A stretch of 63,027 bases of DNA, filler included, from an uncultured Thermoplasmatales archaeon (GTDB lineage Archaea; Thermoplasmatota; E2; DHVEG-1): NCBI GenBank assembly GCA_964517155.1. It is 5 parts of 5 records of this genome, joined end to end, with 100 filler letters (N's around TTAATTAATTAA, not from the genome) between each part and the next. Parts side by side here need not be neighbours in the genome. Positions count along the whole stretch, not along the records: positions 41,534 to 50,573 come from CAZFAZ010000046.1; 4 more parts are not named here. The stretch is one strand, 5' to 3'. Both the position numbers and the translations under genes were made by a program. The notes below the pieces were generated by a model. The model saw only the letters and a program-made list of their open reading frames with translations. It searched no databases and was not told the DNA's origin. Positions 25,836-60,016 of this stretch are shown here, in pieces (positions within the stretch are counted from its first letter, which is position 1; each line of letters starts with the position of its first letter).

Positions 25836-25935
25836 NNNNNNNNNNNNNNNNNNNNNNNNNNNNNNNNNNNNNNNNNNNNTTAATTAATTAANNNNNNNNN
25901 NNNNNNNNNNNNNNNNNNNNNNNNNNNNNNNNNNN
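25836..25935. other. Artificial contig linker
   Basis: N run - TTAATTAATTAA (stops in all six frames) - N run. Confidence 0.98.
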
Positions 25936-40673: not shown

Positions 40674-41433
40674 TTGGAGAAAAGAGCAAAAGAGATAGGA
40701 GACATCATAAAAAAATCTAAAAAGATTCATATTGTAAGTCATATCGATGCCGATGGCCTTACAGCTGGAAGTATTGCATATAAAACACTGGAGAGACTTG
40801 GCAAAGATTTTTCTATTGAATTTGTCAAACAAATAGATGAAGAGGTTGTAAAAAACCTTAAAAATCAAAATCATGAACTTGTATGGTTTACAGATCTTGG
40901 AAGTAGCATCAGCACAATCTCAGATATAAACATGATTATAACTGATCATCATGAATGCCCAGAAAACGCAAATAAATCGTTTCATTTAAACCCTCATCTT
41001 TTTGGTATAGATGGAGGTTTTGAAATAAGTGGTGCAGGAACAACGTATCTTGTTTCAAAAGCAATAAATAAAGAAAACATGGATTTATCTGCTCTTGCAA
41101 TAGTTGGAGCCTGCGGAGATATACAAGATAAAAAATACAGCAGACTTATGAGTTTAAACCGGGATATTTTAAACGATGGGAAAAAACTAGATGTTATTGA
41201 TTCAAGAATTGATATTCGCTATTTTGGTCGCGAAACAAGACCTGTGTATAAACTTTTACAATATGCAAGTGACCCAGCAATACCAGGAATAACTGGGAGA
41301 GAATCATCATGTATTTCTTTTTTGCAAGAAATTGGGATAAAATTAAAAGATGGCGATTTTTGGCGCCGTTGGATCGACCTTACAAAAGATGAAAGAACCC
41401 TTGTTATTTCAAATATCGCACAAACTCTTCTAA
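40674..41433 (+). CDS. DHH-family phosphoesterase (RecJ/GAN-like), 3'-truncated
   Basis: SHIDADG, FTDLGS, TDHH, HLNPH, GACGD. Confidence 0.9.
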
Positions 41434-41533
41434 NNNNNNNNNNNNNNNNNNNNNNNNNNNNNNNNNNNNNNNNNNNNTTAATTAATTAANNNNNNNNNNN
41501 NNNNNNNNNNNNNNNNNNNNNNNNNNNNNNNNN
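41434..41533. other. Artificial contig linker
   Basis: N run - TTAATTAATTAA - N run. Confidence 0.98.
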
Positions 41534-41534
41534 A

Positions 41535-44500
41535 TCTGATAAAAACCAGAAACTTGAGAAAAAAACAAATGATTATGAAAACCTTAAACAAAAAGTATTA
41601 CTCATAGACGAAAACATAGAAAACATTAGAAATGAAATTGATGAAAAAGACCAAGAGATAGAAAAAACAAAAAACTTGCTTTTTGAAAAAGAAGAAGAAC
41701 TAAACGATAAAAAAAGAGAAATAACACATCTAGAAAAAGAGTTAGACGAAGAGAAAAAAAGCAGTAAAAATCGTAATGTTAAAAAACTTAAAAAAGAGCT
41801 TGTTCATAAAGAAAAAGAGTTATCAGATAAAACAAATAAATTAGAAGAATTAAAAGCCAAATATGAAGCAAAACAAAAAGATTACAAAGAAATTAATGAA
41901 CAACTAAGCATAGAAAAAGAAAAATTTGAATCATTAGAAAAAGAATTAAATCAAACTTTAAAAAGTCTTAATGACCTGGAAACAAAAATAAATACAAAAG
42001 ATGAAAATATATCAGAAATAAATGAAGAGCTGGAGCAGAGAACTTTAGAAATTAAAAAACAATATGATAAAATTGAAACATTAGAAACAGAACTACAGGG
42101 TCGTTTAAATGATCTTGAATTCAGAAATACAGAGCTTAGTAAAAGCAGAGAAGAAATAGAAAAACTACAACAAAACACAGAAAACCTACAAGACCAACTA
42201 GATAGAAAACAACAAGAAATAACAGATATACAAACAGAACTGGAAAACAAACAAAATGAAATTTCCAGTTTAAAGTTAGATCTTATAATGAGAAATGAAG
42301 ATTTAAGATTAAGCAAACTTGAAACCCAGGAAAAAAATGATGAAATACAAAATATCAAAAAAGAGCTAGAAGAAAAAATATTTCTGATAGATGATATTCA
42401 AACACATTTATCAGATAAACAAAGCGCCCTTGAAAAACTAGAGTTTGAAATAGCTGAAAAAGAAGCAGCGCTTGAACAAACATGTACTGATTTTGAATCA
42501 TTTAAAAGTGATTTAGAAGAAAAAAATCTGTTGATAAATAAGCTAAATACAGAACTGGCAAATGAAAAGGAAAAATCAGAGCCTCTTTCAGAAGAGCTTA
42601 GAAAAGCACGTGAGAATTTAGAAGAAAATTTATTAGTTTTAAATGAAAAAGAGCAAAAGATATGTGATCTGCAAGTTCAAATACAGGATAAAAAAGAACA
42701 ATTATCAGAGATACAAGCAGATCTTTTTGATAAAGAAGATGCACTTAACACTCTAAACTTGGAAATTGAAACAAGAAACCAGATAATAGAGCAAATGCAG
42801 CAGCAAATCCACAAAGATAATGATTTAATGTTTGAAAAAGTAGAAAAAGCAAACAAACTAGAAATACAGCTTGCAAAAAATCAGGAAGAACTCAATGAAA
42901 AATCAACATTGCTTTTCTCTAAAGAAGATTTTATTAACAGCCTTAAAAAAGAATTATCAGATAGACTTGAGGATTTACAATGGAGAAACAGCGAGTTAAA
43001 CAAAAAACAAGATGAACTAGAAAAAACAACTTATGAATTAAAAAAGATGCAAACAGAGCTGGAAAATAAAAACTTTGCATTTGAAAATCTTTTAAGTGAT
43101 TTTGAAAATAAAAATATTCAGTTAAATAATCTTAAAAGTTTGATAAGTGAAAAAACACTTGAAGTTGAAACTTTAACTAGCGAGCTAGAAAACAGAAACG
43201 AGATAATAAATCAGATAACTCAACAGCTTGCACAAAATCATGAAACATTAATTACAAAAGCAAGTACTGTAGGCAGTCTTGAAACACAACTATCTGTAAA
43301 TCAGCATCAGATGAAGCAAGCAATGGAGAAACTAAATTTTAAGGAAAATGAAATTTTAAAACTTGAGGAAGAACTAAATAAAAAAACCCAGTTTATAAAA
43401 GCAAGAGACAATCTTATATCACGACAGCAAGATGAACTAAATAGTATCTGTTTTGAGCTTGAAACAAAAAAACAAGAATATGAAACTCAATTTGAGAATC
43501 TAACTAATCTTGAAAAAGAACTAAAGACAAGACAAACAGAGATAGAAACATTATATGCAGATATTGAAACAAGAAACCAGATAATAAATGAAATAAAACA
43601 ACAGTTAACGCAAAATCATCTGCAGCTAGTTGATAAAACAAATACTTTAGCAGGTTTTGAAAAAGAATTACTTCTCAAAGACGAAAATATAACAAGTCTG
43701 CAAAAGGAACTAAAAGATAGAACAGAAGATTTAGAATGGCGAAACAATGAATTAAACAAAAAACAAGATGAAATAACTGCTCTTCAGACAAATATACAAA
43801 ATATACAAGTGGAACTAGAAAATAAAACTCAGGAGTTAAATTCAAGTAAACAGCTATTAGAACAAAAAACAAGTGAAATAACTAGGTTAGATACAACTTT
43901 AAAGCAAAATCAAGAAGAACTAAACATTAAACACAGTGAAATAATAAAACTAGAAACAGAACTGAAACACAAAGGAGAAGATTTAGAATCAGCATTAAAT
44001 GATTTAAAGAATCGCAATAATATAATTGATAATTTAAAAAATCAGCTTCATGATAGGCAATCGCATATACTTGAAAAAACACATTTTGAAGAAAAACTAA
44101 GAAATGAAATACAGCTTAAAAACAAAGAACTTGAAGATAAAACAACAGTGATTTCACAGCTTAACACTGAGCGCGATAAACTCTTTGTTAACTTTTCAAA
44201 TCTTCAGAATTCTATTCCAAATCCTGTTTTAATCACAGATTACAATGGAAACATTACAACTATAAACAAAAGAGCAGAAGAGATGTTAGGCCTTGATATA
44301 AACCGTATCAAAGGCTCAAAAATACATGAAATTGATGTATTAAACGATGAAAGAATTCTTGATGCAAATAAAAAAGCGCAAACTAGTAAAAAACAAATAA
44401 AAACAAGCTCTTTTGCACTTACAGATAAAGAAGGAAGCATAAAATTAACAGATGTATTTCATATGCCACTTGTTGATACAAAAGGCGGTGTGCAAGGCTC

Positions 44501-46649
44501 AATAATTGTTTTTGATGATATCAGTAAAATAGCAGGTCTTCAAGCAGAAATAGAGCAAAGAGATGAGGAATTCAATAATCTTAATGCACGTTTCCAGCAG
44601 TCGTATAAAAGGTTGAGTCTGGTTGACCAGGAGATAGAGCTGACAAATGAAGAGCTTAGAAAAAAGAAACAAGAAATCTCTGGAAAAGAACAAACACTGC
44701 AAACTTTAAAAGATGAACTAGAAACAACAAAACTAGAGTTAACAGATAAAGAACAAATCTTAAAACATACTCAAGATGAACTTTTAGAAAGGCAAACAGA
44801 AATAGAAAAACTTGAGTTGGATTTAGAAAATACAAGGCTTTCTTTATCTGATAAACAAGAGGAAATAAAAACAATTCAAAATGATATATTTGAAAAAACA
44901 AATAAGTTAGAAGAAAAAACTAAAGACCTTGGATTTTTATCAGAAGAGCTTAATTCTACAAAAAATAAATTAGAACAAAGGGAAAATGAGCTAGTTGAGC
45001 TAAATCAGAGGTTACATGTTAAAACAGGAGAGATACAGGAAAGCCAACAGCAGATAATGAGTCTTGAAACAGAACTTGCCCAAAGGCAAAACAAACTTGA
45101 GGAGTTAACAGATAAACTTGAAGAAAAAACTGATGAAAATGTTCAATTACAGTTAAAATTAGACCACAGATTAGAAGAATTAAATCAGAAAACAAATGAT
45201 TTTGAAGTAATACAAAAAGCCTTGCAAGAAAAAACACAAACTCTCTCAGAGCTTGAATCAAACTTTGAAAAAACACAAAATACGCTAGATGAAAAAACAA
45301 CTGAGTTATCTGATAAAAACATGCAGATAAACGAACTTACTGAAGAACTTAAAGCAGGTAAATCTGCACTTAACTGGTTTAAGGTAGAAGTTGAAGAAAA
45401 ACAAAGAAAAATAGAGCAGGTCACCTCTGAGCTTACAAAAAGACAACAAGATTTTGAAGAATTAACAAAAAATTTGCATACCCATAAAGAGCTTGTTGAT
45501 GCAAAAACACTTGCGATCGATAACCTGCAAAAAGAACTAGAGGATACCTCGGAAGTTTTAAAATTAAAAGATTCAGAGTTAGAAAGTACAAAATCAGATT
45601 TGCAGGATAAATTACAAAATATCGCAAATCTTGAAGAACAATTAGAGAAAAAACAAGAGGATTTAACTATTAGAAACAGTAGGCTTATATCAAGAGAAAA
45701 ACAGATAAATGAGCTGCAAACAGAGCTGGGAAACACCTTAAAACAACTAGAGTCTGCAAACAGCGAGCTTTTAAAACAAAGGCAAAACATTGAAAAATTA
45801 CATAATGAAAGACAAAGTCTTGTCTTTGAATTTAATCAGATGAAAAACTCTATTTCTTCTTCAATTGTAATTCTTGATAAAGATAACAACATAATAAACT
45901 GGAATAAAAAAGCAGAAGAGATGCTAGGTTTAGAATCTGACATTTTAAAAGGTTTGAATGCATCAAAACTAGATCTTATGAAAAAAGAAAGAATAATTGA
46001 GAAGATGAACGAGTTTGATAAAAATAAAAAACCTGTAACTGTAAAATCTATATCTGTTAAAAACAAGAAAGGAGAAATCACTCTTACTGATATTACAAAG
46101 CTTCCTATGCATAAATCAAACGGTGAATTACACGGATCTATTATGATACTTGATGACGTGAGTAGAACTGCGGAGGCAGAAGCAGAGCTTGAGCGTAAAA
46201 CAAAGGATTTGCAGATTCTTGATAGTAAATTTAAAGATGCTTATACTAAACTTAAGCTTGTAAATCAGGGTAAAATTGCTGTATCCGATCATATTGCAAA
46301 TCTTTCCGAGAATAAAGAAAAAGAAATAAGACATATCGGAAGGGTTCTTGAGGAGAAACAAAAAGAGTTAGAAGTAATAAATAACACTATTTTGTCTAAA
46401 ACAAGTGAACTTGAAAATATTACAGCAAATCTTTCTGATAAACAAAATACTCTGCAGATAATTCAAAGTGAGCTTAATATGAGAAAAGCAGAGATTGAAA
46501 CAACTCCTATGACTGAAGAGGTTTTAAGTAAAACGTTAAAAGAAAAACTTAAGCTTTATGATGAAATTGATAAAACATTGGGTCTTTCTGAAGAAGAAGT
46601 AATTAAAACAAAAAAGTTAGATAATGATTTAGAGTTAGAAGATAAATAA
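41535..46649 (+). CDS. Giant coiled-coil protein with two PAS domains, 5'-truncated
   Basis: Frame is open from the contig edge (SDKNQKLEKK...). Heptad E/K/L/Q-rich sequence. Two PAS-like units: SIPNPVLITDYNGNITTINKRAEEMLG and SISSSIVILDKDNNIINWNKKAEEMLG, each ending GSI..xDD. Confidence 0.85.
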   Translation, partial: SDKNQKLEKKTNDYENLKQKVLLIDENIENIRNEIDEKDQEIEKTKNLLFEKEEELNDKKREITHLEKELDEEKKSSKNRNVKKLKKELVHKEKELSDKTNKLEELKAKYEAKQKDYKEINEQLSIEKEKFESLEKELNQTLKSLNDLETKINTKDENISEINEELEQRTLEIKKQYDKIETLETELQGRLNDLEFRNTELSKSREEIEKLQQNTENLQDQLDRKQQEITDIQTELENKQNEISSLKLDLIMRNEDLRLSKLETQEKNDEIQNIKKELEEKIFLIDDIQTHLSDKQSALEKLEFEIAEKEAALEQTCTDFESFKSDLEEKNLLINKLNTELANEKEKSEPLSEELRKARENLEENLLVLNEKEQKICDLQVQIQDKKEQLSEIQADLFDKEDALNTLNLEIETRNQIIEQMQQQIHKDNDLMFEKVEKANKLEIQLAKNQEELNEKSTLLFSKEDFINSLKKELSDRLEDLQWRNSELNKKQDELEKTTYELKKMQTELENKNFAFENLLSDFENKNIQLNNLKSLISEKTLEVETLTSELENRNEIINQITQQLAQNHETLITKASTVGSLETQLSVNQHQMKQAMEKLNFKENEILKLEEELNKKTQFIKARDNLISRQQDELNSICFELETKKQEYETQFENLTNLEKELKTRQTEIETLYADIETRNQIINEIKQQLTQNHLQLVDKTNTLAGFEKELLLKDENITSLQKELKDRTEDLEWRNNELNKKQDEITALQTNIQNIQVELENKTQELNSSKQLLEQKTSEITRLDTTLKQNQEELNIKHSEIIKLETELKHKGEDLESALNDLKNRNNIIDNLKNQLHDRQSHILEKTHFEEKLRNEIQLKNKELEDKTTVISQLNTERDKLFVNFSNLQNSIPNPVLITDYNGNITTINKRAEEMLGLDINRIKGSKIHEIDVLNDERILDANKKAQTSKKQIKTSSFALTDKEGSIKLTDVFHMPLVDTKGGVQGSIIVFDDISKIAGLQAEIEQRDEEFNNLNARFQQSYKRLSLVDQEIELTNEELRKKKQEISGKEQTLQTLKDELETTKLELTDKEQILKHTQDELLERQTEIEKLELDLENTRLSLSDKQEEIKTIQNDIFEKTNKLEEKTKDLGFLSEELNSTKNKLEQRENELVELNQRLHVKTGEIQESQQQIMSLETELAQRQNKLEELTDKLEEKTDENVQLQLKLDHRLEELNQKTNDFEVIQKALQEKTQTLSELESNFEKTQNTLDEKTTELSDKNMQINELTEELKAGKSALNWFKVEVEEKQRKIEQVTSELTKRQQDFEELTKNLHTHKELVDAKTLAIDNLQKELEDTSEVLKLKDSELESTKSDLQDKLQNIANLEEQLEKKQEDLTIRNSRLISREKQINELQTELGNTLKQLESANSELLKQRQNIEKLHNERQSLVFEFNQMKNSISSSIVILDKDNNIINWNKKAEEMLGLESDILKGLNASKLDLMKKERIIEKMNEFDKNKKPVTVKSISVKNKKGEITLTDITKLPMHKSNGELHGSIMILDDVSRTAEAEAELERKTKDLQILDSKFKDAYTKLKLVNQGKIAVSDHIANLSENKEKEIRHIGRVLEEKQKELEVINNTILSKTSELENITANLSDKQNTLQIIQSELNMRKAEIETTPMTEEVLSKTLKEKLKLYDEIDKTLGLSEEEVIKTKKLDNDLELEDK

Positions 46650-46666
46650 TAACTCTATTTATTTTT

Positions 46667-47296
46667 TTATTCAAATGTTATAATTGATTTCATAGGCATT
46701 GGTGCTTTAAGTATTGTCGTGCGTGTTATGCCGCTAGAGGGAAACATTGTTATTTTTATTGTATCGTATTTGCTCATTTGCATATCTGTTGGTAATTTGA
46801 ATACTAGATAAGCATTATCGCTGTTTTCGTTTAAAACATGATAATTTGTTATTGATTCATCTATATCCATTATGCTTATAAGTCCAAAGTTTTCAATACT
46901 AATATCATCCCAAAGTGTATGTTCGAATAGGGATTGAACACCTATTTTTGCTGAGTTGCTGTTGTAATAAAGCATTCTTATTGTTTCACCGTTGTCTATT
47001 TGGATTGTGAGTTGAGTCATATCTATGTTTTGTGATACTAGTGGCGATATAAGTAGCGCTATTTTTTGGATTTTTTGAACATTATCTGTTTTGTAGTACT
47101 TTCCTTTTTGATCTTTTATCTGTATGTAAGATGTTATTTCATCAATTACTTCTCTAGTTATTTGCTCTAAATCTTGTTCTTCTGTAGTTGTAGAAGTTGT
47201 TTCTTCTGTTAAAACAGATGCAGCTGTTACCACTATAAGCATTATTGCAATCAGTATTATTACTGTAGCTATTCCTGAGCTCCCCCAGTTTTTCAT
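46667..47296 (-). CDS. Archaellin (FlaB/ArlB)-family protein, divergent
   Basis: Class III signal MKNWG|SSGIATVIILIAIMLIVVTAASVL; IDMTQLTI, FGLISIMDID, NSDNAYLVF match the archaellin layout. Confidence 0.8.
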   Translation of the reverse strand: MKNWGSSGIATVIILIAIMLIVVTAASVLTEETTSTTTEEQDLEQITREVIDEITSYIQIKDQKGKYYKTDNVQKIQKIALLISPLVSQNIDMTQLTIQIDNGETIRMLYYNSNSAKIGVQSLFEHTLWDDISIENFGLISIMDIDESITNYHVLNENSDNAYLVFKLPTDMQMSKYDTIKITMFPSSGITRTTILKAPMPMKSIITFE

Positions 47297-47596
47297 TTTT
47301 TATCACTTATCGTTTTCCTAGATATATCTTAGTAAACATTATTATTTAAAGCTTATTATACAAATGTTATCAAAATAATGTGTATTATGAAGAAAAAGTA
47401 ATTTTTGTTATTTATTTTTTTAAATATTTTTGACAAAATGTCATTTTGAGGTTTTTGCCATTTCCGCCCTTTTTACAGATATGACAGTATACCGGGGAAG
47501 CTTTAAATAGTGTTAATTGAGAACAGATAACATGAAATACATTAACATGCCGTGATGTGGCATGGTAATGAAATGAAAGAAAGGTGGTGAAAAGAA

Positions 47597-48484
47597 ATGG
47601 AAAAAAAGTATATGGAAAGGCTGATTGGACGATATTGTAAAATCGTAACAAAAGAACCCGGCGAGAGAAGAGCAAGTGTCGTTACAGGCACCCTTGAAGA
47701 TGTAGACTACCAAGATGGTTTTGTTTTAGTAGACTCAGAACAAGGATTAGGGTGTCTAAGAATAAGCACAATAGTTGCTATAAAACCAGGCAGAAAACAT
47801 AAACTTGAAAGTGAAAAGAAAATTAAAGATAATGAAGAAGCTTTAGTAGGTATTGGTACCCTAATTATTTTCATTGCAACAATTCTAATTGCAGCAGTTG
47901 CAGCATCAGTGCTGATTAATACATCAGAAGAACTGCAATCAAGAGCAAAAACTGTAGGTACACAAACCATACAAGAAGTATCAGCAGGTATCGCGATAGA
48001 ATCAATCACAGGATATACAAATGAAGATAAAACATACATAGAATATTTAGCATTAACTGTCAGACCCCGAGCAGGAAGCAAAGATATAGATCTTAGCCTA
48101 TGTACACTAACTGTATTATACGATAACTTAAGTGTATTAAAGCTAGATTCAACATTAGTACAAGAAGTAAACATAGACAATGCAAGTTTATTTTATACCC
48201 CAATTGTATCCGGATCAAACTACACCATTATGGGAAACACAACAAGCACAACATTCGGAGTAATATCAATACATGACCCAGATGGCTCTATAACAAATAC
48301 AAATGGTATGAACTCAGGAGACAGATGTATTATAATAGTAAATCTAAGTGCAATAATATCTGGCGGCGGATTACCCCCTCGACAAGCAGTATCTGGAACA
48401 ATAACACCAGAAATAGGTATAAAATCACAGTATGATGTAACAGCACCAGCGGTATTTTCAAAAAGAATAGTTGCATTAAACTAA
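47597..48484 (+). CDS. flaB: Archaellin (FlaB/ArlB) with ~80-aa N-terminal extra domain
   Basis: VGIGTLIIFIATILIAAVAASVLINTS..LQSRA..VG, RPRAGSKDIDL, FGVISIHDPDGS, MNSGD, GLPPRQ; SD-like AAAGGTGGTGA before ATG. Confidence 0.9.
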   Translation: MEKKYMERLIGRYCKIVTKEPGERRASVVTGTLEDVDYQDGFVLVDSEQGLGCLRISTIVAIKPGRKHKLESEKKIKDNEEALVGIGTLIIFIATILIAAVAASVLINTSEELQSRAKTVGTQTIQEVSAGIAIESITGYTNEDKTYIEYLALTVRPRAGSKDIDLSLCTLTVLYDNLSVLKLDSTLVQEVNIDNASLFYTPIVSGSNYTIMGNTTSTTFGVISIHDPDGSITNTNGMNSGDRCIIIVNLSAIISGGGLPPRQAVSGTITPEIGIKSQYDVTAPAVFSKRIVALN

Positions 48485-48507
48485 ACAAAAAAATAAGAAA
48501 ACAATTA

Positions 48508-48546
48508 GGGGCAAAAAAAGCCCCATTAAATTTTTTTTGATTTTTT
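48508..48546. terminator. Probable terminator between convergent archaellin and PAS genes
   Basis: GGGGC-A7-GCCCC stem flanked by A-rich and T-rich tracts. Confidence 0.5.
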
Positions 48547-49793
48547 TAATCTTTTTTAACATCGCGTTTTTTAAAAACAAGAACCTCTGCTTTCTCCCCA
48601 TTAAAAAAAGTAGGTTTTGTATCAACTTCAACATTTATTTTAACATTACCAGACTGCAAAATTACTGTTTCAAAACCTGAAACATCGTCACCTTTAAGCC
48701 TGTTAAAATAATATTGCTCAATACCAGAAAAACCAGAGGGATCAATAAAATCAAAAATACTCTTATCAATTATCTCATTAGAATCATAACCAATTAAACC
48801 GACAAAAGAAGAATTTACCTTCTTAAGAACACCTCTTTGAATAATTACTGCACTATCCTCAAGCTCATCAATCATAAATTTATCAGATTCTTCCAAAGTA
48901 TCAACCTTTGCTCTTAATTCATGACCAACAGGAGGATCTGAACTAATTTTTTCCAATGCTTTTTCTTTATTTTCAACCCATTTAACCCTACTTTCTATGC
49001 TGCTTTCAAGCTCTTCTAATTTCTCACGCCAACGAATAAATTCATTCTTACGTTCATTAATCAATTGCTTCTCATTTTTAAGTCTAGTTTCAAGCCGGAT
49101 CAAACGTTTTTCACGTTCATCAAGCTCTTGCATTAAAGCATGCAATTCTTCACGATTTTTTAAACTACCAAAAACATCAGAGAAACGGTATAATCCTCTT
49201 TCAACTATCTCTTCGGCACCAATAGTTTGAGAAGATTTCTTAGATTTTAATTTTTCAAGCTTTTTTTCAAGTTTTTCATTTATTTTCTCAAGTTCTTTAT
49301 TCTTTTTTTCAAGCTCAAGTACTACTTTTTCAAACTCGTTAAAATAATCTTGCTCAGGCGGACTTAAAACCTCTGCCTGTTTATTAATCAAAGGCTTTTC
49401 AAAATCATGTCCATATGAAACAATTTGGCCTACAAGACCGATATCTTCTACCTTACCACCATAATTACTCACAGGAAAGCTACTCCATGAAACCATAATC
49501 TCCTGACCATTACTTGTCAAAACAGGAAGGCTAAAATCATCGATAAGTTTGTTTTCACGAACAGCACCAATAATCTTTTTCCATTGTGCCATACATCCTG
49601 AAGGAATTAAAAAACCAAAAAAATCTTTATCAAGAACATTATCTTTTTCATATCCCAAAATTTTTTCACATTCATCATTAAATTTTATAATTTTAAAATT
49701 TTGATCAATTGCCAAAATTAAATCTTTATCAAAAGAATCTTTACTGCGCTTCTTGATATAATCCTCTTTTTCCGTTGACATTTCTATCTCCAA
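48546..49793 (-). CDS. PAS - coiled coil - PAS protein with no output domain
   Basis: N-terminal PAS (LILAIDQNFKIIKFNDECEKILGY), central heptad region, C-terminal PAS (AVIIQRGVLKKVNSSFVGLIGY...IIDKSIFDFIDP). Confidence 0.82.
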   Translation of the reverse strand: MEIEMSTEKEDYIKKRSKDSFDKDLILAIDQNFKIIKFNDECEKILGYEKDNVLDKDFFGFLIPSGCMAQWKKIIGAVRENKLIDDFSLPVLTSNGQEIMVSWSSFPVSNYGGKVEDIGLVGQIVSYGHDFEKPLINKQAEVLSPPEQDYFNEFEKVVLELEKKNKELEKINEKLEKKLEKLKSKKSSQTIGAEEIVERGLYRFSDVFGSLKNREELHALMQELDEREKRLIRLETRLKNEKQLINERKNEFIRWREKLEELESSIESRVKWVENKEKALEKISSDPPVGHELRAKVDTLEESDKFMIDELEDSAVIIQRGVLKKVNSSFVGLIGYDSNEIIDKSIFDFIDPSGFSGIEQYYFNRLKGDDVSGFETVILQSGNVKINVEVDTKPTFFNGEKAEVLVFKKRDVKKD

Positions 49794-50047
49794 ACAAAAA
49801 CAACCAAGTCAATTTATTCTTTCAATAACCCCACTTAACTATTCTTTAACTATTTTTAATACTTTTTGTTTTACAAAAAAATATTTTTTGACAATAATTA
49901 CCAAGAGTATAAATAACATAAAATAGATTCAAAATAGTATTAAACATAAATTTATCTTAAAATAAAACTATAAATACAAGATTATAGTTATATAGCATAT
50001 TAGCTATAACTTACTAGGTGCAGGAGGGGTGTAAAATAAAGTTAAAG

Positions 50048-50573
50048 ATGGGAAAAGAAGGTGAAGAGTCAGCAGAGCAACCAGAAGGTGAAGCCAAAGA
50101 GCAGCCAAAAGAAGAAATAGTTGCACCAGAAAATAACGAAGAGCCTGAAAAGAAAAAAGAAGACGTTGATAAACTCAGAAAAGTAATAAAAATTGATGAT
50201 AAAAAACCAGAAAAAAAAGAAGAAAAACCTTCACAAGATGCTGAGTTAGAACCTACTTCAAGAGAAGGACTTGAACAAAAAAGGGCGATTTTACAAAGTA
50301 TAAAAGATTTTGATTTTCAAATAAAGAAAAATCAGGAAGAAATAACTGCTTTAAATAATAAATTAGATGGAGTGTCAAAAGACCTTGATGACCTTGTAAG
50401 TCTTTATGAAATAGTATCTGAACAGATGAATCCTTTTGTTGGTCTTTCAAAAGTTACTAAGAAAAGACTTGATGCACTTGAAAATTTTACAAAAGAAATA
50501 GAAGATTTAAAAGATAGACTTGGGGATATAGAATCATTTGCTGTAAGGGCTGGTGCAGATTTAAATACTATGC
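50048..50573 (+). CDS. Archaellum accessory ArlC/D/E (FlaC-like) protein, 3'-truncated
   Basis: Charged low-complexity N-terminus, then coiled coil ending LDDLVSLYEIVSEQMNPF, which resembles the FlaC LYE.VS...NPF motif. Confidence 0.7.
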
Positions 50574-50673
50574 NNNNNNNNNNNNNNNNNNNNNNNNNNN
50601 NNNNNNNNNNNNNNNNNTTAATTAATTAANNNNNNNNNNNNNNNNNNNNNNNNNNNNNNNNNNNNNNNNNNNN
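50574..50673. other. Artificial contig linker
   Basis: N run - TTAATTAATTAA - N run. Confidence 0.98.
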
Positions 50674-51209
50674 ACAACAACTTTTCTAAGTGCTCTATCA
50701 CTTATATCCATTACACGAGGCCATACAATATACCGGGGGTCGATATGAAATTCGTCTCCATAATGAATATGATTATCAAGAAGACTTGCAAGTAAGTTAT
50801 GTGCACTAGTAATAGCATGCATGTCCCCTGTGAAATGAAGGTTTATATCTTCCATTGGAACTACTTGTGAATAGCCACCGCCTGCGGCACCTCCTTTCAT
50901 ACCCATAGTGGGGCCAAGACTTGGCTCACGTATGCAAAGCATTGTTTTTTTGTTAAGTTTTGAAAGTGCTTGGGCAAGACCAATGGTCATAGTGGTTTTT
51001 CCTTCACCCTCTGGAGTAGGATTAATAGTTGTTACAAGAATTAGTTTACCATTTTTGTTGTTTTTAATGCGGTCGAAAATTCTAGGGTGAACCTTTGCTT
51101 TAAACCCGCCCCATGGAATTACTTCATCTTCATTAATTCCTATTTTTTTGGCAACACAATAAATATCTTCAAGTTTTGCCTCGCGAGCGATTTCAATGTC
51201 AGTTTTCAT
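50674..51209 (-). CDS. fhs: Formate--tetrahydrofolate ligase, N-terminal part (truncated)
   Basis: [43 protein letters not shown]. Confidence 0.97.
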
Positions 51210-59916: not shown

Positions 59917-60016
59917 NNNNNNNNNNNNNNNNNNNNNNNNNNNNNNNNNNNNNNNNNNNNTTAATTAATTAANNNNNNNNNNNNNNNNNNNNNNNNNNNN
60001 NNNNNNNNNNNNNNNN
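59917..60016. other. Artificial contig linker
   Basis: N run - TTAATTAATTAA - N run. Confidence 0.98.

What the first reader, a model, noticed from the sequence alone, without database searches (positions are those of the whole stretch)
41534..50573. Atypical archaellum-related locus wired to kinase-less PAS/coiled-coil proteins
Seen: one contig holds giant coil-PAS-coil-PAS (+), archaellin-like (-), archaellin with an extra domain (+), PAS-coil-PAS (-) and ArlC-like (+, truncated), in alternating orientations. No che genes and no arlF/G/H/I/J are visible. Known: euryarchaeal arl loci are usually co-directional arlB-CDE-FGHIJ operons and receive signals through CheY/CheF at ArlCDE. Inference: this may be an undescribed, Che-independent sensory or scaffold module in which PAS-bearing coiled coils couple directly to ArlCDE or a polar structure, or the archaellins may build a non-motility filament. 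This is the best candidate for a new system in the window.
Basis: partly seen in the sequence, partly recalled or inferred. Interest (0 to 1): 0.85.

Follow-up and report, generated by a model that had tools for sequence, protein, structure and literature searches.

The report
Archaellum locus with PAS and Sm-leader extras
The flagged stretch is the front end of an otherwise ordinary swimming-filament (archaellum) gene cluster of an uncultured sediment archaeon, split by the assembly, but it carries a conserved set of four extra genes, including a filament protein with a folded Sm-like leader and a kinase-less PAS sensor that occurs only in genomes that have the motor.

Summary
The five genes exist as described. 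The finding is one whole MAG contig (C46, window 41534-50573), because the window is five contigs joined by N spacers.

The claim that no arlF-J genes are present is an assembly artefact. The 3' end of C46 overlaps the end of contig C5 exactly over 99 nt. C5 carries arlD/E, F, G, H, two arlI, arlJ, four arlB and earA. The joined order is collinear with relatives.

No CheF, CheW or MCP was found in this 90.8%-complete genome, and they are rare in relatives.

What is unusual is a conserved four-gene block upstream of arlC:
- **PAS-coil-PAS protein.** It has no kinase or HTH domain. It was found in 22 of 24 ArlDE-positive relatives and 0 of 16 ArlDE-negative ones.
- **Archaellin with a long leader.** Its 82-aa leader is a confident Sm/Hfq-fold domain followed by a conserved prepilin-peptidase site.
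- **Minor archaellin-like protein.**
- **Giant PAS coiled coil.**

Relatives that deleted the cluster keep the Sm-fold ORF, which shows low dN/dS, and the giant protein. Direct coupling of these proteins to ArlC/DE remains untested. I class this as a new variant of a known system.

The parts
41535..46649 (+). GIANT: cytoplasmic PAS/coiled-coil protein, at least 1704 aa here, N-terminus cut by the contig start. The closest full-length relative has 2235 aa with three PAS domains.
   Evidence: Two PAS regions were found, with coil-type sub-threshold hits (SMC, crescentin, Fez1) between them. The frame is open to the contig start. No hydrophobic segment was found. The relative L038 giant has 2235 aa with PAS at 43-145 and two more PAS, and no kinase domain. 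The length varies from 274 to 2250 aa among relatives. The gene is retained in the arl-less relatives G004, G002, G014 and, as two ORFs, G001.
46667..47296 (-). AL209: divergent archaellin-like protein with a short class-III-type leader (MKNWG|SSGIA...), a putative minor filament or pilin-like subunit.
   Evidence: Pfam Arch_flagellin scores 51.4 bits against a cut-off of 29.5. NCBIfam 'flagellin' scores 69.9 bits, below its cut-off of 210. There is one N-terminal hydrophobic helix. It is 33% identical (E 2e-39) to a paralogue on contig C35 and 27% (E 3e-12) to ArlB1. It keeps its position next to ARCH295 in 35 relatives' ORFs. It has decayed in arl-less G004.
47297..47596 (.). Divergent intergenic region (300 bp) between AL209 and ARCH295, presumably holding both promoters.
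   Evidence: This follows from the ORF map and the sequence. Its similarity to other archaellin upstream regions was not above shuffles (z 3.4, score 31 against the best shuffle of 32).
47597..47842 (+). Leader of ARCH295 (residues 1-82): an Sm/Hfq-fold domain (about residues 1-65) plus a basic, disordered linker that ends in the predicted prepilin-peptidase site A82|L83.
   Evidence: This is the most conserved part of the protein. The model of residues 1-70 has pLDDT 92.6, with a helix followed by five strands. The best structural matches are Hfq/Sm proteins: 3hfo Z 9.4, rmsd 1.4 A over 57 residues; 2qtx Z 9.0. Foldseek ranks Sm proteins at E about 1e-2. No Pfam family reaches its cut-off; the best is RimP C-terminal SH3 at 17.9 bits against 26.3. 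Position -1 is A or G and position +3 is G in 13 of 13 homologues, as in the genome's own ArlB leaders.
47843..48484 (+). Mature archaellin part of ARCH295 (residues 83-295, plus the stop codon).
   Evidence: Pfam Arch_flagellin scores 106.4 bits. The model has a long N-terminal helix (86-129) and a beta-sandwich, with pLDDT 83.3 for the whole protein. The Foldseek top hits are solved archaellum filaments: 7ofq E 1.9e-18 with 34% identity, then 5z1l, 8rh5 and 5o4u.
48546..49793 (-). PCP415: cytoplasmic PAS / coiled coil / PAS protein with no kinase, HTH or transmembrane segment. It is transcribed divergently from arlC.
   Evidence: PAS domains lie at about 24-122 and 315-404. No hydrophobic segment was found. 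The conserved core is the coil plus the C-terminal PAS. It lies within one to three genes of arlC in 12 of 13 assessable neighbourhoods. It lies directly behind ARCH295 in 22 of 29 further loci. It was found in 22 of 24 ArlDE-positive and 0 of 16 ArlDE-negative relatives.
49794..50017 (.). Divergent intergenic region (224 bp, very A+T-rich) between PCP415 and arlC.
   Evidence: ORF map and sequence.
50018..50573 (+). 5' part (185 codons) of arlC. The gene continues on contig C5 (outside the window) to give a 307-aa ORF. It is followed there by arlD/E, arlF, arlG, arlH, arlI, a second arlI and arlJ.
   Evidence: FlaC_arch scores 41.5 bits. There is a 99-nt exact overlap with the reverse complement of the C5 end, the only overlap of at least 12 nt among the other 90 contigs in either orientation. 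The frame is continuous and gives a 307-aa ORF. ArlC of relatives L035 and L038 aligns across the junction, residues 43/46-307. The C5 genes were identified by Pfam and NCBIfam.

Best explanation
Contig C46 is the upstream end of a single archaellum locus of about 25 kb. The host is a Thermoplasmatota MAG in which no Che genes were found. By the names of its nearest public relatives it is of the MBG-D / 'SG8-52' type.

Shown:
- arlC runs on into a conventional co-directional arlC-D/E-F-G-H-I-I'-J operon, followed by four arlB genes and earA.
- Upstream of arlC sits a four-gene block (GIANT, AL209, ARCH295, PCP). It is conserved across the window's own family and a second family of its order.
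- PCP occurs only in genomes that have the motor.
- ARCH295 is a filament-type archaellin preceded by an Sm-fold domain and a leader-peptidase-type site.
- Relatives that deleted the cluster keep the Sm-fold ORF and GIANT.

Inferred:
1. PCP is a dimeric cytoplasmic PAS sensor or adaptor dedicated to the archaellum. It has no enzymatic or DNA-binding output, so it would act through protein contacts, most likely at the ArlC/ArlDE ring. This would give these mostly Che-less archaea a direct sensory input.
2. ArlK/PibD cuts ARCH295 at A82|L83. The mature subunit enters the filament as a minor archaellin, and the Sm-fold leader is released into the cytoplasm. There it has a function of its own, possibly together with GIANT, so that its supply is tied to archaellin processing.
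3. AL209 is a second minor subunit.
For: **Join.** There is a 99-nt exact overlap, and it is unique. The joined arlC ORF is continuous at 307 aa. Relatives' ArlC aligns across the joint. The order GIANT ... arlJ, arlB, earA, HhH-GPD is collinear with relatives, including the deletion remnants in G004 and G002.

**Core genes.** Pfam and NCBIfam identify them. A prepilin peptidase A24 gene lies on contig C7.

**Che.** No CheF, CheW or MCP was found in the own genome. CheF was found in 2 of 40 relatives and CheW in 3 of 40. This includes G009, a single-contig genome that has arl but neither gene.

**Synteny.** PCP lies near arlC in 12 of 13 assessable neighbourhoods. The block is seen in 22 of 29 further loci. 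At least one of those loci, L052, is the same contig as L033.

**Phyletic profile.**
- PCP: 22 of 24 ArlDE-positive relatives against 0 of 16 ArlDE-negative.
- PCP was not found at E<=1e-5 in 4 of 4 arl-less genomes, while the positive control scored 1.8e-52.

**No kinase or HTH.** Neither was found in PCP or GIANT, nor in the full-length relatives.

**Leader.**
- It is more conserved than the archaellin part.
- It has an Sm/Hfq fold.
- The cleavage motif is conserved in 13 of 13 homologues and matches the genome's own ArlB leaders.
- The fused form is seen in at least 837 protein clusters, and 119 of the top 120 carry PF01917.
- Up to 545 clusters are stand-alone forms.
- Stand-alone ORFs in arl-less genomes are intact. 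Among 15 alone-alone pairs, 13 gave dN/dS of 0.08-0.30 and 2 were saturated.
- In G004 the archaellin part has decayed while the Sm-fold ORF has not.
Against: - No direct evidence exists for any contact of PCP or GIANT with ArlC, ArlDE or the leader.
- GIANT persists without the archaellum, so it is not motor-specific.
- PCP co-exists with Che genes in G005, so it is not a straightforward substitute for Che.
- In 6 of the 29 further loci, and in G009, the PCP next to ARCH295 is a variant with a membrane-spanning N-terminus. It sits in an operon with two secreted proteins and is not next to arlC.
- The genome has about 14 stand-alone receiver proteins and about 12 HATPase_c proteins. These could supply a different input to the motor.
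- Cleavage of the leader is inferred from a motif only.
- The RNA-binding residues typical of Sm/Hfq are not obviously conserved. This is my reading of the alignment against recalled motifs.
- Related genomes are not independent, so the phyletic counts overstate the number of events.
- The dN/dS values rest on 64 codons.
- The genome is 90.8% complete, so the absence of Che genes is 'not found'.
Confidence: 0.6

Rival explanations
1. This is a self-contained, atypical archaellum-related system without arlF-J, in which PAS coiled coils and odd archaellins build a non-motility filament or a new sensory module separate from a conventional archaellum.
For: On the contig alone no motor gene is visible and the orientations alternate. 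In 6 of 29 further loci, and in G009, the block sits away from arlC.
Against: The contig joins to a full arl operon. The same arrangement lies on single contigs in relatives, for example L036, L038, L043, L045 and L046. PCP, AL209 and the archaellin part of ARCH295 are lost together with the motor. The own genome has no second ArlJ-type platform next to the block. Its other T2SSE-type ATPases lie on contig C52 and were not examined.
Confidence: 0.05
2. PCP, and perhaps GIANT and the Sm-fold leader, control arl gene expression rather than the motor. For example, PCP could act as a signal-dependent partner or anti-activator of EarA or of the basal transcription machinery. The Sm-fold protein could act on arl mRNAs. 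In that case the divergent arrangement with arlC would be a regulator-target pair.
For: PCP and arlC share a 224-bp divergent promoter region. earA lies in the same locus and is kept, like the Sm-fold ORF and GIANT, after loss of the arl genes. The leader has the fold of the RNA chaperones Hfq and Sm. The co-occurrence of PCP with arl fits a dedicated regulator as well as it fits a motor partner.
Against: PCP has no DNA-binding domain. The Sm/Hfq match is to the fold only, with no family hit above cut-off. No shared operator-like repeat stood above shuffles between the block's promoters and the arlB promoters.
Confidence: 0.25
3. GIANT, possibly with PCP, is a structural element. It would be a long coiled-coil scaffold at the archaellated pole, a candidate component of, or tether to, the euryarchaeal polar cap, whose proteins are not identified in the review I read.
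For: GIANT has a very long coiled-coil architecture. It keeps its position in the arl locus. The review PMC8978795 (section 12 read) describes the polar cap as a probably proteinaceous sheet associated with the motors and possibly contacting ArlC/DE, and names no component.
Against: GIANT is retained where the archaellum is lost. Its length varies about eightfold (274-2250 aa) and its sequence is poorly conserved. It is missing from the block in the second family of the order, seen in L033 and L034. No polar cap has been imaged in this lineage, and no homologue is known to me in Thermococcales, where the cap was imaged; I did not search for one.
Confidence: 0.12
4. The ARCH295 leader is not removed. 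The protein would then be a bitopic membrane protein: a cytoplasmic Sm-fold domain, one transmembrane helix and an outer archaellin-like domain. It would work like the ArlF/ArlG stator proteins as a fixed part of the motor, linking outside to inside.
For: There is one hydrophobic helix between the two folded parts. ArlF and ArlG are archaellin-like, and the model also matches them, although weakly, at E about 1e-4. Position -2 is not K/R as in the classical preflagellin site; that site is recalled.
Against: The genome's own ArlB leaders also lack K/R at -2 and share the [A/G]|xxGIG pattern with ARCH295. The outer domain is far closer to filament archaellins (E 1e-18, 33-36% identity) than to ArlF/G. 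The stand-alone Sm ORFs show that the domain can work untethered.
Confidence: 0.15

Closest known systems
Euryarchaeal Arl1-type archaellum cluster (arlB genes followed by arlC, D, E, F, G, H, I, J), as in Methanococcales, Thermococcales and Halobacteriales. Sources: review PMC10117864, passage read; PMC8978795, passages and section 12 read.
   Same: [quoted passage not shown] Several arlB genes and earA lie in the same locus. A prepilin peptidase is encoded elsewhere.
   Different: The arlB genes lie downstream on the opposite strand. There are two tandem arlI paralogues, 58% identical, both above the NCBIfam FlaI cut-off. Four extra conserved genes sit upstream of arlC.
The ArlCDE-CheF-CheY switch of Haloferax and Halobacterium. 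Sources: PMC7534055, search listing and abstract start only; PMC8978795, section 12 read.
   Same: ArlC and ArlD/E, the docking platform for sensory input, are present.
   Different: No CheF, CheW or MCP was found. The candidate input here is a PAS-coil-PAS protein with no receiver or kinase domain. No interaction has been shown.
Sm / LSm / Hfq small beta-barrel proteins, for example the Methanocaldococcus jannaschii Hfq-like protein 2qtx and Synechocystis Hfq 3hfo.
   Same: The fold is the same: an N-terminal helix followed by five bent strands, with Z 9.0-9.4 and rmsd 1.4 A over 55-57 residues.
   Different: No sequence-family match above cut-off was found. The domain is fused in front of a class-III signal-peptide-type site and an archaellin, an arrangement I found in no paper. 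Ring formation and RNA binding were not tested.
Assembly-coupled regulators of bacterial flagella: FlgM export, and the FliW-CsrA-flagellin partner switch.
   Same: The shared idea is that processing or export of a filament subunit changes the amount of a free cytoplasmic regulator.
   Different: This is an analogy only. There is no homology, and release of the leader is inferred, not shown.
   Same: It appears to describe the variant of the same block in which PCP follows two secreted proteins. I saw that variant in L044, L048, L049, L051, L059, L060 and G009.
   Different: In this window PCP stands alone, facing arlC. I found no duplicated promoter within the block.

Membership tests
Archaellin (Pfam PF01917 Arch_flagellin): ARCH295 | Family HMM above the gathering score | tested here: met
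   106.4 bits against a cut-off of 29.5, over residues 84-278.
Archaellin (filament subunit): ARCH295 | N-terminal hydrophobic helix plus beta-sandwich fold like solved archaellum filaments | tested here: met
   The model has pLDDT 83.3. Foldseek hits are 7ofq at E 1.9e-18, then 5z1l, 8rh5 and 5o4u, at 33-36% identity.
Archaellin (filament subunit): ARCH295 | Class III signal peptide that is short and cut by ArlK/PibD | tested here: inconclusive
   The motif [A/G]|xxGIG is conserved in 13 of 13 homologues and matches the genome's own ArlB leaders. However, the leader has 82 aa with a folded domain, and cleavage itself cannot be tested here.
NCBIfam NF006325 'flagellin' subfamily | Score above the curated cut-off (210 bits) | tested here: not met
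   ARCH295 scores 175.0 bits and AL209 69.9 bits. The genome's own ArlB1 scores 213.7 bits.
Archaellin-like (PF01917): AL209 | Family HMM above the gathering score | tested here: met
   51.4 bits against a cut-off of 29.5.
ArlC (Pfam PF05377 FlaC_arch) | Family HMM above the gathering score, and position directly upstream of arlD/E | tested here: met
   41.5 bits against a cut-off of 27.8. After the 99-nt join the gene is followed by Arch_fla_DE at 83 bits.
Sm / LSm / Hfq | Sm fold (helix plus a five-stranded bent sheet) | tested here: met
   The model has pLDDT 92.6. The best match has Z 9.4 and rmsd 1.4 A over 57 residues, and 20 chains score Z>=8, mostly Hfq, Sm and LSm.
Sm / LSm / Hfq | Sequence-family membership (Pfam LSM or Hfq models) | tested here: not met
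   At E<=10 the only hit is the RimP C-terminal SH3 domain, at 17.9 bits against a cut-off of 26.3.
Sm / LSm / Hfq | Hexameric or heptameric ring, and RNA binding | not testable with these tools
RNA binding needs an experiment.
Sensor histidine kinase | HisKA/HATPase_c catalytic core | tested here: not met
   Neither domain was found in PCP415 or GIANT, nor in the full-length relatives of 2235, 2247 and 403-657 aa. HATPase_c is found elsewhere in the genome, with 12 matches.
Archaeal chemotaxis system (CheA/W/Y/F plus MCP) | CheF, CheW and MCP signalling domains in the genome | tested here: not met
   There were 0 matches each for PF04283, PF01584 and PF00015 in the 90.8%-complete genome, and the controls rang. 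Receiver domains are present, with 18 matches. CheA-specific domains were not searched separately.

The most novel reading that the evidence does not exclude
These mostly Che-less Thermoplasmatota steer or gate their archaellum through a previously unrecognised route. A kinase-less PAS-coil-PAS protein would dock directly on the ArlC/DE ring, possibly within a scaffold built by the giant PAS coiled coil, which is a candidate polar-cap component. A specialised pre-archaellin would release an Sm-fold protein on each processing event. That protein, kept even by relatives that lost the filament, would feed information on archaellin export back into cytoplasmic, possibly RNA-level, regulation.
Probability: 0.2. 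Interest if true: 0.85.

Novelty: new variant of a known kind. Interest (0 to 1): 0.58.

Why it matters
How archaella are controlled in the many archaea that lack a chemotaxis system is an open question. So is what ArlC/D/E do in those organisms. The protein make-up of the polar cap also went unnamed in the 2022 review I read.

This locus offers three concrete and abundant candidates from a globally common group of sediment archaea:
- a PAS-coil-PAS protein whose presence tracks the motor;
- a giant PAS coiled coil encoded beside the motor genes;
- an archaellin family with a folded Sm-like leader, seen in at least 837 protein clusters in public data. Where a source names them they are labelled 'flagellin FlaB', 'archaellin/type IV pilin N-terminal domain-containing protein' or 'hypothetical protein'.

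A folded, independently conserved domain as the leader of a type-IV-pilin-like subunit would be a new twist on class III signal peptides. It can be tested in vitro without culturing the organism.

The case also shows that 'missing' motor genes in a concatenated MAG window can be a contig-break artefact.

Tried and rejected
- **Complex prediction** of ArlC (residues 78-185), ArlD/E and full PCP415, each with its own alignment. The verdict was 'no answer' (score 0.00, mark 0.32, controls not run). This is neither support nor evidence against binding.
- **Shared promoter elements** between the block's two divergent intergenic regions and other archaellin upstream regions. Only ArlB1 against the contig-C4 archaellin stood above 100 shuffles (z 7.4, score 41 against a best shuffle of 28). 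ARCH295 against the C35 AL206 upstream region did not (score 31 against 32).
- **Paralogy of PCP and GIANT.** BLASTP gave E 0.048, which reflects only generic PAS and coil likeness.
- **Tandem DNA repeats in the GIANT gene.** None of note was found, although the protein shows repeated coil modules by eye.
- **Protein atlas search for PCP.** It returned only the protein's own Thermoplasmatota cluster and generic PAS clusters.
- **Homologues of the two secreted proteins** (about 450 and 230 aa) that precede the membrane-type PCP variant in other genomes. None was found in the own genome by tblastn, and they have no Pfam family.
- **Che and the Sm-leader archaellin as mutually exclusive.** I considered this because the two ArlDE-positive relatives without the leader (G005, G038) are the two with CheW. 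I rejected it. In G005 the contig starts inside the archaellin gene that precedes PCP, and G069 of the same genus has two full-length copies.
- **5' extension of C46.** No contig end overlaps it, so the N-terminus of GIANT stays unknown.
- **Literature.** Searches were 'archaellin' + 'Sm-like' (0 papers), 'archaellin' + 'Hfq' (3 papers, unrelated by title and abstract start), 'Thermoprofundales' + 'archaellum' (4 papers), 'polar cap' + 'archaellum' + 'coiled-coil' (2 reviews), 'archaellum' / 'PAS domain' / 'ArlCDE' and 'Marine Benthic Group D' / 'archaella' / 'PAS'. None describes this block. PMC9585477 (passages read) only lists FlaI, FlaJ and FlaB in Thermoprofundales. Its supplements were not opened and could hold gene tables.

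Full report
**1. What the window is**

The 63-kb window is not one molecule. It is five contigs of a 91-contig, 1.585-Mb MAG (90.8% complete, 0.51% contamination), joined by spacers of 44 N + 12 nt + 44 N. The finding's coordinates, 41534-50573, are exactly contig C46 (9040 bp). Anything that appears cut at 41534 or 50573 is cut by the assembly.

**2. The observation**

ORF listing and Pfam/NCBIfam scans confirm all five genes.
- **GIANT (41535-46649, +).** A frame of at least 1704 aa, open to the first base of the contig. It has two PAS regions between long coil-type stretches. It has no hydrophobic segment.
- **AL209 (46667-47296, -).** Matches Arch_flagellin at 51.4 bits.
- **ARCH295 (47597-48484, +).** Matches Arch_flagellin at 106.4 bits, but only over residues 84-278.
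- **PCP415 (48546-49793, -).** PAS, coil, PAS. No kinase, no HTH and no transmembrane segment.
- **ArlC-like ORF (50018-50573, +).** Matches FlaC_arch at 41.5 bits and runs into the contig end.

**3. The missing motor genes are on the next contig**

The last 99 nt of C46 are identical to the first 99 nt of the reverse complement of contig C5. No other contig end overlaps either end of C46 by 12 nt or more.

Read across the overlap, the ArlC-like frame is continuous and gives a 307-aa protein. ArlC proteins of relatives align across the joint, for example L038 over residues 43-307.

C5 then carries, co-directionally:
- Arch_fla_DE (263 aa);
- ArlF and ArlG;
- ArlH;
- two ArlI paralogues, with NCBIfam FlaI scores of 671.7 and 677.1 bits against a cut-off of 550. 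They are 58% identical and both have a Walker A motif;
- ArlJ.

On the other strand C5 holds four canonical archaellins and, further along, EarA.

The same order lies on single contigs in relatives. The locus is therefore a conventional Arl1-type cluster with additions, not a motor-less system.

**4. Who it is**

The nearest public contigs are titled Thermoplasmatota, Thermoplasmatales or Thermoplasmata MAGs, for example 'Thermoplasmatales archaeon SG8-52-3'. By my recall these names belong to MBG-D / Thermoprofundales.

**5. Chemotaxis genes**

No CheF, CheW or MCP signalling domain was found in the genome, and the control genomes rang. Among 40 relatives, ArlDE was found in 24, CheF in 2 and CheW in 3. 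The single-contig genome G009 has arl and neither Che gene.

Two-component parts are plentiful, however. There are 18 receiver-domain matches, about 14 of them stand-alone proteins of 125-160 aa. There are also 12 HATPase_c matches and 45 PAS_9 matches. CheA-specific domains were not searched separately.

**6. The accessory block is conserved**

I fetched 14 arlD/E neighbourhoods from relatives. In 13 the region upstream of arlC can be assessed. PCP lies within one to three genes of arlC in 12 of them and is absent in 1, L039.

I also examined 29 public loci found through ARCH295 or its leader.
- PCP directly follows ARCH295 in 22.
- The contig ends first in 4.
- Another gene follows in 1.
- 2 hold only the leader domain.

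Of the 22 loci with PCP:
- arlC-J follows in 10;
- the contig ends in 6;
- in the remaining 6, PCP is a variant with a hydrophobic, membrane-type N-terminus in place of the first PAS. It sits behind two secreted proteins without any Pfam family.

G009 has both kinds of PCP. Some public loci duplicate handle genomes; L052, for example, is the same contig as L033.

AL209 homologues flank ARCH295 throughout. GIANT homologues flank AL209 in most loci of the window's own family. They vary from 274 to 2250 aa and are only 23-37% identical. The closest full-length one, L038 at 2235 aa, has three PAS domains, coils and nothing else.

**7. Phyletic pattern and natural deletions**

I used the conserved coil plus C-terminal PAS of PCP as the query at E<=1e-12. 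It was found in 22 of 24 ArlDE-positive relatives and in 0 of 16 ArlDE-negative ones. A separate search of four arl-less genomes found nothing at 1e-5, while the positive control gave 1.8e-52.

The leader domain of ARCH295 behaves differently. It is present in 30 of 40 relatives: 22 of 24 ArlDE-positive and 8 of 16 ArlDE-negative. All 30 lie in the two families f1 and f2 (30 of 32 sampled); none was found in the 8 relatives from the six other families sampled.

In ArlDE-positive genomes the leader heads a frame of 260 aa or more. In 7 of the 8 ArlDE-negative genomes that have it, the frame is short (66-142 aa). The exception, G034, is only 70% complete.

The loci of arl-less G004 (a single-contig genome), G002, G001 and G014 read: GIANT, the leader-only ORF, an unrelated gene, then earA and HhH-GPD in G004 and G002.

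tblastn shows the scars.
- In G004, a decayed archaellin part of ARCH295 with stops abuts a remnant of the ArlJ C-terminus. Remnants of AL209 and ArlB4 are also present.
- In G001, ARCH295 residues 1-81 abut ArlJ residues 530-588.

These are deletions that removed PCP and arlC-J. They also support the C46-C5 order independently.

The leader-only ORFs are intact in 6 of 6 such loci. Nei-Gojobori dN/dS over 64 codons is 0.08-0.30 for 13 of 15 alone-alone pairs; the other 2 were saturated. Fused-fused pairs give 0.07-0.15. The leader domain is therefore kept by selection without the filament. PCP, AL209 and the archaellin part are not.

**8. The leader is an Sm-fold domain in front of a peptidase site**

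In 13 homologues the first ~65 residues are the best-conserved part of the protein. A variable basic linker follows, and then [A/G]|xxGIG(T/S)L. The genome's own ArlB proteins have ...DVG|SIGIG and ...ETA|SIGIG. I therefore predict cleavage at A82|L83. An A24 peptidase gene is on contig C7.

AlphaFold gives the following:
- whole protein: pLDDT 83.3, with a barrel at residues 13-64, a disordered stretch at 69-81, and a helix at 86-129 followed by a sandwich;
- residues 1-70 alone: pLDDT 92.6.

The outer part matches solved archaellum filaments: 7ofq at E 1.9e-18, then 5z1l, 8rh5 and 5o4u. That is far better than its match to ArlF/G, at about 1e-4.

The leader matches Hfq, Sm and LSm proteins: 3hfo at Z 9.4 and rmsd 1.4 A over 57 residues, and 2qtx at Z 9.0. 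Foldseek E-values are about 1e-2. No sequence family reaches its cut-off.

In the 5.8-billion-protein collection the profile of the leader finds 837 longer proteins among the 8000 candidates scored. Of the top 120, 119 carry PF01917. It also finds 545 proteins of 36-158 aa among 740 candidates, some of which are contig-end fragments. Where a source names these proteins, the names are 'flagellin FlaB', 'archaellin/type IV pilin N-terminal domain-containing protein', 'hypothetical protein' or 'ribosome maturation factor RimP'.

**9. How it most likely works**

Shown:
- the locus structure;
- the conservation of the block;
- the co-occurrence of PCP with the motor;
- the architecture of ARCH295;
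- the retention of the leader and GIANT after loss of the archaellum.

Inferred:
- PCP is a PAS sensor or adaptor that acts through protein contacts on the archaellum, with the ArlC/DE ring as the obvious target.
- ARCH295 is cut, its mature part enters the filament, and its Sm-fold leader is released to act in the cytoplasm, perhaps with GIANT.

The main rival is control of arl expression rather than of the motor. A scaffold or polar-cap role for GIANT, and an uncleaved stator-like ARCH295, remain possible. I found none of these arrangements in print.

**10. Verdict**

The 'atypical, motor-less locus' is an assembly artefact. The block upstream of arlC is a real, conserved and undescribed addition to a known system.

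Noticed in passing
Contig C5 of the same genome (locus L009: 9501-11153 and 11184-12818, minus strand); not in the window: There are two tandem arlI paralogues. They are 58% identical, both have a Walker A motif, and both score above the NCBIfam FlaI equivalog cut-off. Adjacent pairs of above-cut-off hits are also listed in many genomes of the class, for example G018, G021, G025, G041, G048, G055, G057 and G084. I did not count them systematically, and I did not check whether model archaea have such pairs.
   Followed up: partly
Contig C35 of the same genome (locus L012: 4803-9770): This is a second locus pairing an AL209 paralogue (206 aa, 33% identical, E 2e-39) with PAS proteins. It holds a PAS-GAF-PAS-DUF835-winged-helix protein (670 aa), an HTH-PAS protein (181 aa), an unknown 267-aa protein and a stand-alone receiver.
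   Followed up: partly
window 25836-25935, 41434-41533, 50574-50673, 59917-60016: These are N spacers (44 N + 12 nt + 44 N) between concatenated contigs C43, C44, C46, C48 and C49. ORFs that read through them are artefacts. Examples are the apparent overlap of the ArlC-like ORF with a 195-aa formate-tetrahydrofolate ligase N-terminal fragment at 50622-51209, and the end of the DHH-family ORF at 40674-41489.
   Followed up: yes
Contig C5 upstream of arlB1 and contig C4 upstream of its archaellin gene (loci L009 and L010): The two archaellin upstream regions share a similar stretch of about 110 nt (local score 41 against a best of 28 in 100 shuffles, z 7.4). It contains repeated ACCTGCATAT-like words and is probably a shared promoter or operator.
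   Followed up: partly
Loci L044, L048, L049, L051, L059, L060 and L128 (other genomes): A variant of the PAS protein has a multi-pass hydrophobic N-terminus instead of the first PAS. It is encoded behind two secreted or anchored proteins of about 450 and 230 aa without any Pfam family, and next to the Sm-leader archaellin rather than arlC. This probably matches the earlier scan note e1-2792582.
   Followed up: partly
Loci L037 (G015) and L041 (G022): The arlF position is occupied by much larger proteins (483, 456 and 1005 aa in L037; 465 aa in L041) that match ArlF over only 58-120 residues, at either end of ArlF. This suggests expanded stator-like proteins.
   Followed up: no
Loci L122 (G004) and L124 (G002): EarA, the euryarchaeal archaellum activator family, is retained at 77-87% identity in relatives that have deleted the arl operon and the arlB genes. 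It may therefore control other genes as well.
   Followed up: no
Whole genome G000: About 14 stand-alone receiver-domain proteins of 125-160 aa are encoded, although no CheW, CheF or MCP was found. Their targets are unknown.
   Followed up: no
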